From assembly GCA_964016885.1 (NCBI GenBank), contig OZ024742.1, forward strand, positions 197,966,001-198,030,000: DNA of 64,000 bases. Direction: 5' to 3'. Positions 1-55,906 of this stretch are shown one piece after another. The position numbers were made by a program, and so were the translations under genes. Position 1 is the stretch's first letter; every line of letters starts with the position of its first letter. The notes under the pieces were generated by a model, which searched no databases, was not told where the DNA came from, and saw only the letters and a list, made by a program, of their open reading frames with translations. Origin of the DNA: Eledone cirrhosa (taxonomy: Eukaryota).

Positions 1-407
1 GTATATGTATATATATATATATGTATATGTGTGTATATATATATATGTATATATATATATGTATATATATATGTATATGTATATATATATATTGTTATAT
101 TTGGGGAGGGTCATATTTGCGTAATATTGCCAGAATTAATAACAGAACACACTCACTGTTTGGTTGGTTTTCGCTTCTCGCTGTCTTTTATATATATATA
201 TCTGCGATCTAACTTACTCGGTCCTCAATGTTGCCATTGACTGACCGGCGGTCAAAAATAATACAGATACAATATAGACAAACACATATATATATAGTTT
301 ACATAATTTACATAAATCTTTCGTTGCACATCTGCAACATCGTCAGTGGTGTTATATTCATTGTTCCTCCTGTTGTGTTGTATGTCTACGCCATTTTTTT
401 TTGTTCA

Positions 408-2453
408 TGCAACCCCACATCACCAACACGAGCGAAGTTGCACAACTAACACACGATGGGAGAGAAAAAATCCTCAACGCTCACATGATGATGTGGACTG
501 ACATCCTAAAGCCAAGCAGACGCACTGCCAACAACTTCCAGGCGTCTAACAATGGCATACCACCCTTGTATGGGCTCCGCAAAGACCACAAGACAGTCGA
601 CGACCCGACAACGGAGCTAATATAGCTAGCAACTACAGGATCTCCTACTTCCTCTCAATGGTTATACGCCCCATAATCAAGATGTCCCCAGATGTATGTG
701 AAAGTACAGAGGACCTCCTCAGCAGAATCAGTGAGTGCAACAAAAACAGGAGCCTATCCAACTGCATAATAGGCAGCATGGATGTGGTGTCACTGTACCC
801 ATCCATCAACATTGATTTTGCTGTGAAAAGATGTGTGGAGATGATCATTGAGAGTGAGGTGGAGTTCTGCGACGTCGACACAGACGAACTGGGCCTCCTA
901 CTTAGACTTACCTACGACACTGACTACCTACACAGCCATGACCTTAGATGTTTCTGCCCTAGTAGACCTATAAGAGGTAGACCCCCCACCATAACCTCAA
1001 TGGCTAAAAAGACTCCCATAGGAAGGTGGATTGGGTGGACCAAAGCTATACGGACCCCCAAAACACTGATCAGGTAAGAAAAATGGTCGCACATGCAATA
1101 GGGGCTAGTATCAAAACTACCCTAAAGGGCCACATATTTAAGTTCAATGAGAAAATCTACACCCAAAATGAAGGAGCAGCCATCGGCGTCAGCATAGCTG
1201 GTGATGTTGCCAACCTTTTCATGGTATGGTGGGAAAGGAGACTTAAAGATCTCCTCCTTAATGAAAGCTCCATAGACCTCATCATGTACTCTCGTTATGT
1301 AGACGATATCAATATAGTTATAAGAACACCCCCACTAGAGAGCACTAACAAGTTTGATTTAGAACGTAGCACGATGGAAAGCATCCAGCAGATAGCTAAT
1401 TCCATACACCAGAGTATAACTGTAACTATAGACTTCCCTTCCAAACACCCTAACAATAGACTACCTGTATTAGACACAGAACTCTGGATTAACACTATAG
1501 ACGAGAGAGCCCAAATTCTCCACTCACACTATGCTAAACCCATGGCCTCCAAATACCTGATACTCAAAAACTCAGCAATGTCCAGTAGTGCTAAGTTTAA
1601 TATTCTGATCGCAGATTTGGTACGAGTGATGAAGAATATGTCCAGCATGTGCGACCCAACAGAAATGGAAGGACACATCCAACACTTCATCAACGGCATG
1701 CAGTTCTCTGGCTACAACCAAAGAGACAGAGTCAGAGTATACGAAGGAGCCATGGAAAAGTATAAGACCCTCATAGAACTGGACATGAAAGGAATTTGCC
1801 CACTATACAGGAGCAAATCATGGAATAGCTTAGATAGGGCTAGACATAAGATAGGGAAGGCCACATCATGGTACGACAACCAGAGATATCAGAGTGTCAT
1901 GTTTGTGGACGCCACCCCTGGAGGGAAATTAGCTAACCAGTGTAGAAAGGCCCTGAGAAAGACCCACTTAAAAATAAAGGTGGTAGAAAAGCCAGGAACC
2001 ACCATAAAATCCCTGATCAGCAAAACCTACCCTTTTAAGAAAACCCACTGTACCAATAGGAAATGTATCATATGTAAGGTGAACCCCCGGATAAACTGTA
2101 AAACTAGAAACGTAGTCTATAGCATAAGATGTACAGAGGGTACTTGCAGAAACACGACAACAACATACATAGGTGAGACAGCTCGTAGCATAGGTGAAAG
2201 GATAGATCAACACTGGGGGGAACTAAAAGGACGAAAAAACGGGTCAGTACTATACGAACATGCTAGACAACAACATGACAGTAACATAGACAACATAGAA
2301 ATTAGAATAATATCTAAACATAGGAATGACCCAGCAGATAGGCAAATCAGAGAGGCCAGTGAAATAGAAATTAGAAGACCAAAGCTAAACAGAAAGAATG
2401 AGTGGAACAACAACAACACCCAAACAAACAACACTGACCTAAGAGAAGTATAA
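408..2453 (+). pseudogene. PLE reverse transcriptase / GIY-YIG endonuclease, frameshifted and N-terminally truncated
   Basis: Consecutive ORFs 401-625 (LYGLRKDHK), 658-1077 (SMDVVSLYPSI) and 1026-2453 (GAAIG, RYVDD, CxxxxCxxC linker, [22 protein letters not shown]). Confidence 0.9.
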
Positions 2454-2724
2454 ATAATTAAGTAAATAAAATAAAATAAATAAAATAAGATAAATAAATA
2501 CATACACAAGCACATAAACACACACTAGTCACCCAGCAGACACAACACTATACACACTAGTCACACATCACACATAACACTATACACACACGCAAACGCA
2601 TGCGCAAAGAAGACAAAATAAAATAAGATAAACAAACAAGCAAATAAATAAATAAATATATAGACAGACTGAACAAAAAAAAAATGGCGTAGACATACAA
2701 CACAACAGGAGGAACAATGAATAT

Positions 2725-2770
2725 AACACCACTGACGATGTTGCAGATGTGCAACGAAAGATTTATGTAA
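2725..2770 (+). ncRNA. Hammerhead ribozyme motif (type I, degenerate stem I) in PLE-A pLTR; mirror copy ~308-353 on minus
   Basis: CTGACGA-T-GTTGCA-gatg-TGCAAC-GAAA-G-AT-TTA. It sits at the same relative position as the well-formed HHR at 31009-31053, but stem I pairs only 2 bp. Confidence 0.55.
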
Positions 2771-3833
2771 ATTATGTAAACTATATATATATGTGTTTGT
2801 CTATATTGTATCTGTATTATTTTTGACCGCCGGTCAGTCAATGGCAACATTGAGGACCGAGTAAGTTAGATCGCAGATATATATATATAAAAGACAGCGA
2901 GAAGCGAAAACCAACCAAACAATGAGTGTGTTCTGTTATTAATTCTGGCAATATTACGCAAATATGACCCTCCCCAAATATAACAATATCTGTTTCGACA
3001 CACGATTTCATATAAAAAACCTCGCAAAACTAATTCATCGCCGCTATATATATATATGTATATATATATGTATATATATATATATATATATGTATATATA
3101 CATATGTGTGTATATATATATATGTATATATATGTATATATATGTATATATACATATGTGTGTATATATGTATATATATATATGTATACATATATATGTG
3201 TGTATATATATATGTATATATATATATATATGTATATATATATATATATATATATATATATATATATATGAATATATATATATATATATATATATATATA
3301 TATATATATATATATATATATATGTATATATATATATATGTATATATATATATGTATATATATTTATATGTATATATATATATGTATATATATATATATA
3401 TATATGTATATAAATAAATATATATATTTAAAAAAAAATAAGACTCCAGTTGCATTTTCGATTTCATCTCTTTTTCTTTATACTTTCACTCGTGTAGGAC
3501 ACCTCGGTTATTTTTCAATTTGTAAAAAAACCCTCACTTTCTAATATATATATGTATATATATATGTATATATATATATATGTGTATATATATGGATATA
3601 TATATATATGTATATATATATGCATATGTGTATATGTATATATATATATATGTATATATATATATATGTATATATATATGTATATATATATATATGCATG
3701 TGTGTATATGTATATATATATACATACATATATATATATATATATATATATATATATATATATATATATATATATATATATATAAAATAAAATAAATAAT
3801 GAACAAACAATTCCTTATATTAAACAAAAAAAG

Positions 3834-3988
3834 TTCACTATTTAACGATCGTTTCTAGGGCATATATGTGCTATAATTGGTATGCATATTTAACAGATCT
3901 ATGTACAAAATTATACAAAATTATACAAATTATCAAGATTAAATATACATACCTAACTCATATATACGCCGTCTTCAGAAATAATGAA
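3834..3988 (-). ncRNA. Hammerhead ribozyme with long stem II (mirror copy of 16194-16348)
   Basis: Exact reverse complement of the plus-strand motif. Confidence 0.75.
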
Positions 3989-53997: not shown

Positions 53998-54107
53998 CAA
54001 AAAAAAAAAAAAAAAAAAAAAAACTCACTTATTGACACTTATACGTACGACATACACACATGCGCATACATATGCACGCACACATACATACATACATACA
54101 TACATAC

Positions 54108-54715
54108 ATGGTGGCTGCCAACTCGTTTTCAAGTACGGCCACTACTTTATATCCATGTAGGAGAACCCCTACCAATGCGCTGAACGAGTGTCACTTTTTA
54201 GTCCAGCCAGCAACTTGAAAACTCTGGTACAAACACTACACTTGTGACAATTATTGACACAGTGCTGGGCCCATGGTACCATGTGACGACAAGTGCAGAG
54301 AGATCTGCAGATATAAAGCAATGCCTGTGCCGTGAAGCTTTTATAGTGAGCAAAGGCACTGCACAAAGCCAGTCCCACTCTCTTAACCAAGTTGATATTT
54401 ACCAAAAAGAAGAACAAGTCAACATCATTGGATACCATCAGGGTTGCAGGTGTTATATCAGAGTTTTCCTTCTCCTAGAATTCTGCCTTGACAAAGGCTA
54501 AGGGGTCATCTCTCCCGGTGATTTTGGATGGCCATTGACTCTTAAGAGCTCCTTTGCCCTTTGACAGGTTTCGTTTTTAGTCCTGCAGGATGTCCAAAGT
54601 CACCCTCCTCACCAAGAAACCTTAGTGGGGTTGCCAGTTTAGTCGCCAACGACCCGACCATGAGACAGGTTGTACTGGGATACATGTTACCAGTAGCACC
54701 AACTGGTGACCTGAC
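54108..54715 (-). mobile_element. Bipartite RTE-derived element, copy 3, with (TATG)n tail
   Basis: Reverse complement of 25257-25864. Confidence 0.7.
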
Positions 54716-54902
54716 ATACATACATACATACATACATACATACATACATACATATATATATATATATATATATATATATATATATGTGTGTGTGTGTGTG
54801 TGTGTGTGTGAAAATTAAGTATTTCCGTCAGAAAGGTACAGGAAAAAAGAGTGCTCTATGTAGCTTATAAATCCATATTTAATAAATACACCATGTTTTT
54901 TA

Positions 54903-54960
54903 TTCATTCTGACGACTGAAGACAGGCACATCTGTCTTCAAGAAACCACTGGTAAATGAA
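54903..54960 (+). ncRNA. Type I hammerhead ribozyme in a ~185-bp island between microsatellites
   Basis: TTCATT-CTGACGA-C-TGAAGACAG-gcacat-CTGTCTTCA-A-GAAA-CCA-C-TGG-TA-AATGAA. Confidence 0.85.
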
Positions 54961-55906
54961 ATAATTATCTTATGTTGTTTATTACATAACTAAATATATA
55001 TATATATATATATATATATATATATATATATATATATATATATATATATATACACATATATATATATATATATATATATATATATATATATATATATATA
55101 TATATATATATATATATATATATATATATATATATATATACATAATAATAATAATAATAATAATAATGATAATATACCATCAATATACATGCATGGGGGC
55201 TGGAAGGCGTTTGTGTGTGTGTGTGTCGGGGGGGGGGGGTTAGAACAAATGGAGATAATGTTGATCAATGGAGGGTGAGGTAGATGACAATAGAAATGGT
55301 GGTGGTGATGGTGGTGATGGAGAGTTGCTGATGGCAGTGGATGTAGTGTTTGGTGGTAGAAATGATAATAGCAATACAAATGCTACAAGAAAAAAAACAA
55401 AACAAAAATCAGCAACGTGAATTAACCATCAAACTATCTATAATAATAATAATAATAATAATAATAATGGTTTCATTTATTGGCCACAAGGGCCGACATA
55501 TAGGGGACAATACAATAGATGGGGACAGTGGGGTTTTACACAAAAAGCGAGTAAAAATTAGGAAGACAATAACAATAAACAAGAAAAATACAACAATGAA
55601 AATTCCCCAATAGGAGGGATGATGTTGATGCAAGAATAATCAATAGCAATAACAACAATAAATAATATCAATATTATCAATGATGATGACATTAATAGTA
55701 ATAATGATTTCTTTATTATTTTTTTTTGTAATAAAAATAATTATGATTTTTTTATTAGCCACAAGGGCTTTCACATAGAATACAGTAAATATTATAAACA
55801 CAGAGGTTACAATACATGTGTGGCTAGATAAACAAATTTACATAGAAACAAGGGTAGAGGAAATGACTTTATACAATTGACAGATTAATTTGATAAAACA
55901 TAAAAT

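What the first reader, a model, noticed from the sequence alone, without database searches (positions are those of the whole stretch)
91..54995. (TA)n-targeted system of Penelope-like elements and hammerhead satellites inserted as head-to-head pairs
Seen: at least eight insertions from 0.3 to 12.7 kb share one architecture (91-3044, 3787-16532, 18492-18800, 22733-23729, 24110-24908, 30845-32251, 34190-35945, 46611-47110). A minus arm and a plus arm meet at their 5' ends, both 3' ends run into (TA)n, and most carry an HHR. Known: PLEs carry minimal HHRs and can have inverted pLTRs, and animal retrozymes are proposed to be PLE-mobilised. Inference: both ends of a break in (TA)n prime reverse transcription independently and the two cDNAs join by microhomology. 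The same machinery appears to serve coding PLEs and non-coding ribozyme RNAs, so helper, satellites and integration signature are all visible in one locus.
Basis: partly seen in the sequence, partly recalled or inferred. Interest (0 to 1): 0.88.

Follow-up and report, generated by a model that had tools for sequence, protein, structure and literature searches.

The report
One RNA, two primers: Penelope insertions
These mirror-image inserts are real, very common copies of Penelope-type jumping genes and small ribozyme repeats sitting in TA-repeat DNA, a layout already known, and their paired ends plus RNA-editing-like marks shared by both halves indicate that both cut ends of the target likely copy the same RNA molecule from two fixed start points.

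Summary
They belong to Neptune-type and Hydra-type Penelope-like elements (PLEs) and non-coding hammerhead repeats, with thousands of copies in this 3-Gb genome. The inverted 5' arm, one-sided tail and (TA)n bias are published. What is added is mechanism. Each family tested has two fixed 3' ends, short (S) and long (L), and 99 of 100 adjacent opposed end pairs are S+L. Arms are often not nested, which excludes simple fold-back. Seven of 8 A-to-G hyper-edited two-armed copies carry one private edit pattern in both arms, in sense orientation. Microhomology is weak (1-2 nt). The hammerhead satellite S1 obeys the same S+L rule, which supports PLE mobilisation, but its helper is not identified. This scan noted twin priming and edit barcodes before on other DNA.

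The parts
91..3044 (.). N1 Neptune-type PLE, two-armed: minus S arm 91-407, plus L arm 406-3044 (5'-truncated, frameshifted RT-GIY-YIG ORF 550-2453; HHR core at 2731; tail 2988-3044 encodes the ORF start)
   Evidence: CX4CxxC linker read from the ORF; 45,372 motif hits
3787..16530 (.). M1 Hydra-type PLE, 12.7-kb palindrome: minus S arm 3787-10066, plus L arm 10067-16530; uninterrupted 830-aa reading frame 10349-12841; arms differ only by one 1-nt indel and a poly(T) length; about 135-nt tail
16194..16348 (+). M1 hammerhead with a 116-nt stem II, predicted cut after 16338; mirror copy core at 3978 (minus). The minus arm's 5' end can map to the first base after the cut
   Evidence: stem II z = -5.4
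18492..18800. S4 small two-armed insert (shorter end left, end with about 90-nt extension right); HHR not confirmed; no other copy in the loci fetched
22733..23729 (.). S1 466-nt hammerhead retrozyme, two-armed: minus S arm to 23243, plus L arm from 23243; HHR cores at 23010 (-) and 23389 (+); S and L 59 nt apart
   Evidence: (14,890 hits)
24110..24908 (.). S2 about 316-nt hammerhead tandem repeat, two-armed (longer end left); HHR core at 24735 with a U3-purine8 variant
   Evidence: tandem array in L045
26333..30541 (-).
30845..32251 (.). N1b Neptune-type subfamily: minus S arm 30845-32150 (HHR core 31048), plus L arm of 103 nt; 2-nt overlap at the junction
34190..35945 (.). Composite: S1 S arm (minus, to 34619) + about 790 nt of another TA-ending repeat + 3' UTR piece + plus L arm of a second Hydra-type PLE end (S5, from about 35712)
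46611..47110 (.). S3 hammerhead-bearing two-armed insert (longer end left, shorter end right); HHR core at 46935; no ORF; other copies also head-to-head
48192..48231 (+). 40-nt one-armed N1 stub ending at the S site inside a TA array
54811..54995 (+). S6 one-armed HHR-bearing end (core 54909) running into (TA)n

Best explanation
These are Penelope-like retrotransposon and hammerhead-retrozyme insertions in (TA)n with one short and one long fixed 3' end, likely made when both ends of a staggered cut prime reverse transcription on the same sense RNA molecule. Shown: two fixed ends per family tested (S and L, 33-135 nt apart), S+L pairing, non-nested arms, private A-to-G marks shared by both arms. 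Inferred steps: (1) an RT/GIY-YIG complex, probably a dimer, binds the RNA around the ORF start; (2) it nicks both strands of AT-rich DNA about 11-14 nt apart, leaving two 3' primers; (3) one primer starts at L and the other at S, internally, at either pLTR copy of the RNA; (4) each cDNA stops at random, at the RNA 5' end just upstream of the hammerhead, or near where the other began, and the RNA, not destroyed by an RNase H (recalled), can be read twice; (5) the two cDNA ends are joined with 0-3 nt overlap or a few added bases and filled in; loss of one cDNA gives a one-armed insert. The non-coding S1 repeat likely borrows a PLE enzyme in trans. Hammerhead cleavage is likely not needed for insertion.
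For: End pairing: 99 of 100 adjacent opposed end pairs in fetched loci are L+S across M1, S1, N1 and S5 (3 are duplicates). 34 of 34 head-to-head M1 pairs in the chromosome C1 lists are L+S. One apparent L+L case proved to be S+L when its true left end was fetched. Nesting: in 16 of 44 two-armed M1 inserts the S arm is not contained in the L arm (11 L arms are tail only, 5 S arms are longer), while the L arm always has a tail that the S arm lacks. Arm identity: long M1 arms differ by 0-0.4% within an insert and in 8 of 9 less than from the best other copy (0.3-2%). Edits: 7 of 8 hyper-edited two-armed N1 inserts with overlapping arms share 14-105 A-to-G changes (Jaccard 0.80-1.0 vs median 0.24, max 0.46, between inserts). 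Two of them (L235, L231) have the S arm longer than the L arm. One haplotype tested occurs only in the two arms of its insert. Edits are A-to-G in sense with 0-2 T-to-C per arm. The S-L zone is edit-free: 1 of 714 A positions vs 96 of 709 just upstream. Edited HHR cores were still inserted. Duplication-like flanks of 11-14 nt in 5 hand-picked cases. 37 of 88 M1 arm 5' ends fall at 6120-6145, at the HHR's 5' edge. In vitro, the anole PLE cuts and extends both strands, starts at two internal sites that bracket the tail, is predicted dimeric and needs no HHR cleavage (PMC11167929).
Against: One edited insert (L240, unplaced contig) has a second arm with 10 T-to-C and none of the first arm's 16 edits, so some inverted structures are copied from an RNA that already held a hairpin. 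A DNA-level 4.5-kb inverted duplication on C2 also carries one edit pattern twice (28 shared), so DNA copying can produce shared marks. Gene conversion between arms was not excluded. Edit evidence comes only from Neptune N1b; one S1 search found a long array without a convincing edit signature, and M1 was not searched genome-wide for edits. Edited copies were ascertained by patterns fixing A-to-G sites. The ADAR neighbour signature is weak: 3' G 0.38 vs 0.21-0.24; 5' G 0.18, barely below C 0.19. Two S+S pairs were seen (L169; L048). PMC11167929 saw no difference in start site between strands. In C1:2.08 Mb the S and L sites used lie about 4 kb apart, so adjacent engagement is not obligatory. 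The S1 helper is unidentified; only the 59-nt tail length matches N1.
Confidence: 0.75

Rival explanations
1. Both ends prime, but on two separate RNA molecules from the same source locus; arms look alike through a shared source and later gene conversion between the inverted arms.
For: Long inverted arms can convert (general knowledge). A DNA-level duplication copied an edit pattern on C2. L240's arms are discordant. A predicted dimer could hold two RNAs (PMC11167929).
Against: Edit patterns differ strongly between inserts (Jaccard median 0.24) yet match across the whole overlap in 7 of 8 inserts, while arms keep 0-41 later differences. Conversion would have to be near-complete each time. No clean two-family S+L pair was found among the junctions inspected.
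Confidence: 0.13
2. Fold-back or self-priming: one strand (a cDNA, or an antisense RNA as proposed in PMC3846280) folds back and is copied, and the endonuclease later trims one end to leave the tail.
Against: 16 of 44 M1 inserts and the edited L235, L231, L236 and L201 are not nested. Junction overlap is 0-3 nt or an insert, not a hairpin primer. Edits are sense A-to-G in both arms, not the T-to-C an antisense template would leave. The equal-ended cases sit mostly at a fixed stop that one-armed inserts also reach (L167, L183).
Confidence: 0.08
3. Assembly artefacts, or chance neighbours of independent insertions in (TA)n.
For: The 12.7-kb arms are almost identical; the window's junction at 406 was not bridged by listed contigs; TA arrays collect many elements.
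Against: Arms are asymmetric by a fixed tail; junctions differ from insert to insert and mostly lack (TA)n; 109 distinct head-to-head junctions vs 1 tail-to-tail candidate, which was separated by a TA array. Similar joints occur in contigs of run X1.
Confidence: 0.04

Closest known systems
Insertion units of endonuclease-bearing PLEs with inverted 5' copy and one-sided tail (Craig et al. 2021, PMC8557442; Arkhipova et al. 2013, PMC3846280; passages read)
   Same: Head-to-head inverted arm, tail at one end, partial tandems, (TA)n bias, HHR in the pLTR, ORF start inside pLTR plus tail, N-rich ORF insert, short target duplication.
   Different: Those papers give no S+L count; the 2013 paper proposes self-priming on an antisense template. 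Here tails are 33-135 nt rather than 30-40, and the Hydra-type unit is 6.3 kb rather than under 3 kb.
PAc (anole Poseidon) in vitro TPRT (Frangieh et al. 2024, PMC11167929; parts 1-2 of 4 read)
   Same: Both strands cut and extended, two internal start sites bracketing the tail, AT-rich target, HHR dispensable, predicted dimer.
   Different: The text read does not link this to inverted insertions, sees no strand difference in start site, and does not address one versus two RNAs.
L1 twin priming (Ostertag and Kazazian 2001; recalled, not read)
   Same: Second target end primes internally on the same RNA; 5'-5' inversion junction with short microhomology.
   Different: In L1 the second site is a chance match and the arms do not overlap; here both sites are fixed and the same RNA stretch can be copied into both arms over kilobases.
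Animal non-LTR retrozymes (Cervera and de la Pena 2020, PMC7229834, passages; Li et al. bioRxiv 10.64898/2026.07.22.740005, parts 1-3 of 5)
   Same: 300-470-nt tandem units with a type I minimal HHR, from short arrays to one of at least 33 units, co-occurring with PLEs.
   Different: PLE mobilisation is proposed there from co-occurrence and pLTR homology; the parts read show no integration signature. S1 shows the signature (S+L, head-to-head, (TA)n) without detectable pLTR homology.

Membership tests
EN+ Penelope-like element | RT followed by C-terminal GIY-YIG in one ORF | tested here: met
   N1 and P1: weak RVT_1 (and for P1 GIY-YIG) Pfam hits below curated cut-offs; motifs read from ORFs. 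M1 has no Pfam hit; its YRDD and YIG motifs were read by eye.
EN+ Penelope-like element | pLTR containing the ORF start, with one-sided tail and tandem or inverted copies | tested here: met
   the full-length N1b copy at C1:2.08 Mb continues from the tail into the ORF.
EN+ Penelope-like element | Hammerhead in the pLTR | tested here: met
   Descriptor hits for M1, N1b, P1; the window's N1 copy is diverged; cleavage not testable.
EN+ Penelope-like element | RT phylogeny inside the PLE clade | not tested
   No tree built; no reference PLE proteins held.
Hydra clade (M1, S5 family) | RWK-like motif, DKT, CxCX5C linker, CxxC and CxH near the end, no CCHH | tested here: met
   M1 ORF shows RWR, DKT, CNCRNKTNC, CRLC and CNH, matching the definition read; the L178 ORF piece has the same linker.
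Hydra clade (M1, S5 family) | Generally under 3 kb | tested here: not met
   Unit is 6,285 nt with a 3.4-kb microsatellite-rich 3' region; a typical rather than defining trait.
Neptune clade (N1) | CX2-5CxxC linker before the GIY-YIG | tested here: met
   CTNRKCIIC and CIDKKCITC. Nematis also has such a linker, so Neptune rests partly on recalled motifs.
Non-LTR retrozyme (S1, S2) | Non-coding tandem units each with a type I HHR | tested here: met
   S1 466 nt, arrays of 2 to at least 33 units; S2 about 316 nt. S3, S4, S6: no tandem seen, may be PLE end remnants.
Non-LTR retrozyme (S1, S2) | Self-cleavage and circular RNA | not testable with these tools
   No RNA data laid. Internal units within dispersed arrays differ by 0-4 of about 325 nt, which fits a circle or a uniform array.
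L1-type twin priming | Both target ends prime on one RNA, 5'-5' junction | tested here: met
   Indirectly, by shared edits and non-nested arms.
L1-type twin priming | Second site set by chance complementarity; arms do not overlap | tested here: not met
   Fixed S and L sites; 33 of 44 M1 inserts have overlapping arms.
ADAR hyper-editing | Clustered one-strand A-to-G changes | tested here: met
   13-147 A-to-G vs 0-2 T-to-C per edited arm.
ADAR hyper-editing | 5' G depletion and 3' G enrichment | tested here: inconclusive
   3' G enriched; 5' G lowest but close to C.

The most novel reading that the evidence does not exclude
Across PLE clades (Neptune, Hydra) and in trans for hammerhead retrozymes, integration is a coordinated, asymmetric two-site reaction: one enzyme complex holds one sense RNA and starts one break end at S and the other at L, reading the same RNA twice. 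The inverted pLTR and the tail are then a single product, and fossil ADAR edits serve as single-molecule barcodes and map the protein-protected RNA element.
Probability: 0.55. Interest if true: 0.78.

Novelty: new variant of a known kind. Interest (0 to 1): 0.62.

Why it matters
How PLEs, the telomerase-related retroelements, form tandem/inverted ends and tails is named as an open question (PMC8557442), and the hypothesis in PMC3846280 is antisense self-priming. The S+L rule and shared edits point to two-site priming on one sense RNA and give exact start sites and a protected region for an in vitro test. The S1 result is a direct insertion-signature argument that animal retrozymes use PLE enzymes. 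It also shows RNA edits entering genomic DNA.

Tried and rejected
Rfam scan: swamped by TA repeats. DNA search of G000 with S1: empty because common words are skipped. First M1 S-end pattern matched a minor variant (4 hits). Genome-wide counts of L+TA (4,550) and S+TA (2,060) are not comparable, because the S pattern misses a subfamily: of 20 'solo' L ends fetched, about 12 were S+L and about 6 one-armed. An early idea that one-armed inserts always end at L was dropped: S1 8 of 8 L, but M1 6 L vs 3-4 S. Heterologous two-family pairs: the candidates (window 34190 and 26333; L031) resolved into composites or nested inserts, or stayed ambiguous. Junction scoring against a single reference was confounded by subfamilies and redone leave-one-out; 18 of 109 junctions lacked references and 24 of 91 were unresolved and dropped. 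Automatic end calls gave false S+S and were replaced. Apparent 11% arm discordance in L079 and L086 was an alignment artefact. TA-array polarity across inserts was mostly uninformative (4 concordant, 0 mirror of 25). No common fold or sequence at S/L sites across families. Runs: no RNA holder listed; no contig bridging 406 was listed. The S+S reading of L048 was not re-checked. No structure, complex or protein-database job was run.
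Full report
SETTING. The window lies on contig C3 of a 3.0-Gb animal genome; its repeat landscape looks cephalopod-like (recalled, no call). I read bases 1-57000, self-aligned the window, scanned for hammerheads with my own descriptor, then used 11 pattern searches of the genome and about 240 fetched loci.

OBSERVATION. 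Seven of the eight listed inserts are two-armed, 5'-to-5', with both 3' ends at (TA)n; 34190-35945 is a composite. Strand was set by ORFs or hammerhead polarity. Coding families: N1/N1b (Neptune-type linker; 45,372 motif hits); M1 (830-aa frame whose RWR, DKT, CxCX5C, CxxC and CxH motifs match the Hydra clade definition; 1,131 hits of one HHR variant; 4,550 L ends); and P1, one-armed. Non-coding tandem HHR repeats: S1 (466 nt, 14,890 hits; an array of at least 33 units on C3) and S2. S3, S4 and S6 may be ends of unidentified PLEs; S5 is the end of a second Hydra-type family. Raw-read support could not be obtained.

WHAT IS KNOWN. Craig et al. (PMC8557442; passages and section 11) describe the inverted 5'-truncated copy, the tail often at only one end, and the (TA)n bias, and call the mechanism open. 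Arkhipova et al. (PMC3846280; passages) report head-to-head as most frequent, with 8-10-bp duplications, and propose self-priming on an antisense template. Cervera and de la Pena (PMC4209133; passages) note minimal HHR pairs on opposite strands 100-700 bp apart. Frangieh et al. (PMC11167929; parts 1-2 of 4) show cutting and extension of both strands and two internal start sites that bracket the tail. PLE mobilisation of retrozymes is proposed in PMC7229834 (passages) and bioRxiv 10.64898/2026.07.22.740005 (parts 1-3 of 5). Ten library searches (listings only unless named) showed no paper stating the S+L rule or using edits to trace PLE arms; subscription journals and supplements are largely not covered. 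PMC2873906 and PMC6962438 were seen as passages and add only background.

RESULT 1: TWO FIXED ENDS, PAIRED. S1 ends at phases 251 and 310, N1b at 1306 and 1365, M1 at about 6332 and 6464, S5 at 1245 and 1326, P1 at 2884 and 2917. Terminal probes found 100 adjacent minus-then-plus end pairs: 99 L+S, 1 S+S, 0 L+L. Three are duplicate loci, a few are neighbours not verified as single inserts, 20 M1 loci were chosen by their L end, and a manual S+S (L048) was missed. The C1 lists give 34 of 34 L+S. Independent choice would give about half. The one L+L suspect turned out to be S+L, with a full-length element between the ends.

RESULT 2: ARMS ARE NOT COPIES OF EACH OTHER. Of 44 two-armed M1 inserts, 20 end within 15 nt of each other, 8 have L longer, 5 have S longer and 11 have an L arm confined to the tail (positions taken by hand). 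An S arm cannot template the tail, and in 16 cases the L arm cannot template the S arm, so both come from RNA. 37 of 88 5' ends fall at the 5' edge of the HHR, likely the RNA start (inferred); this explains the recurring palindromes of about 540 nt. Junction overlap averages 1.58 nt vs 1.03 in 1,798 chimeras (43 junctions, p = 8e-5); 24 others carry 1-10 extra nt.

RESULT 3: ONE SENSE RNA. An alignment showed an N1b insert with a run of A-to-G changes in both arms; that haplotype occurs exactly twice in the genome. Three patterns found 16 edited insertions: 8 two-armed with overlap in the edited zone, 3 two-armed without, 4 one-armed, and 1 DNA-level duplication. Seven of the 8 share 14, 15, 26, 33, 35, 98 and 105 edits, with 0-9 arm-specific ones, far above sharing between inserts. 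L235 and L231 have the longer arm at S. L236's L arm is the tail alone. All concordant edits are sense A-to-G, against an antisense template. Exception: L240 has a T-to-C arm, as expected if its RNA was a transcribed hairpin of an earlier head-to-head insert; this also suggests where the double-stranded substrate comes from. Positions 1240-1365 are nearly edit-free (1 of 714), which marks a protected or selected recognition element (inferred).

RESULT 4: SATELLITES. S1 gave 23 of 23 L+S, with arms near-identical within young inserts and multi-unit arms whose internal units differ by 0-4 nt. S2 and S3 show the same layout in a few copies. No credible homology to PLE ends was found; the 59-nt tail matches N1. 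A different TA-flanked 604-nt repeat with one fixed 3' end formed no head-to-head pair of its own in about 11 copies seen, so (TA)n residence alone does not give this layout.

MECHANISM AND ODDS. Twin priming on one sense RNA at fixed S and L sites, 0.75; two RNAs plus conversion, 0.13; fold-back or antisense self-priming as the general route, 0.08; artefact, 0.04. The dimer, the stagger, repeated reading of the RNA and the joining step are inferred.

EARLIER NOTES. Looked up after my own results: this scan has reported twin-primed PLE inserts in at least 7 genomes and the edit-barcode idea in this genome. These are unchecked AI notes and are not counted as support.

VERDICT. Real; known architecture; new mechanistic variant with a sharp test. 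Interest 0.62.

Noticed in passing
window 25258-25861, 32847-33452, 54111-54714 (-), 63890-64000: 604-nt TA-flanked repeat with a fixed 3' end and variable 5' end, 70% like the 5' region of the RTE-type LINE at 53725-53951; contains an HDV-like ribozyme-looking motif (recalled pattern, not tested).
   Followed up: partly
window 20021-22733 and 37381-40092: 2.7-kb direct duplication (99.6%) ending in an element with 220-bp terminal inverted repeats (21760-22731).
   Followed up: no
window TA arrays 2-93 to 58930-59073: All 12 long interrupted TA arrays counted are G-rich on the top strand (G 9-97, C 0-5) regardless of the neighbouring element's orientation.
   Followed up: partly
L206/L207 (G000:C3:12281000-12299999): S1 retrozyme satellite array of at least 33 units over more than 19 kb; candidate source locus.
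   Followed up: partly
L240 (G000:C1574) 803-1553: Insert with a sense-edited arm followed by an antisense-edited arm: apparent re-retrotransposition of a transcribed hairpin.
   Followed up: partly
L233/L234 (G000:C2, about 324.75-324.76 Mb): 4.5-kb tail-to-tail inverted duplication (97%) that includes an edited N1b S arm.
   Followed up: partly
L242 3729-10000: Full-length N1b element with ORF pieces of 369 and 919 aa; edits are concentrated in the upstream pLTR copy.
   Followed up: partly
window 16204-16338: Hammerhead with an unusually long (116-nt) stem II in the Hydra-type pLTR.
   Followed up: partly
L171, L079, L086, L127: TA arrays on both sides of an insert repeat the same locus-specific interruption, as if expanded from a duplicated target; arrays up to 4.8 kb occur next to inserts (L187).
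   Followed up: no
L008 840-1200, L040 4607-4790, L051, L067: A further TA-ending, head-to-head family with two apparent ends about 110 nt apart, frequent in the fetched loci and unclassified.
   Followed up: partly
window 43054-44033: About 50-nt minisatellite array; the window also holds many copies of a roughly 180-nt SINE-like repeat (e.g. 19556-19737) and LINE fragments (36016-37371, 50530-53805).
   Followed up: no
window 19050-19529: Short ORF with 11-aa repeats rich in K/Q/Y/R; no Pfam hit.
   Followed up: no
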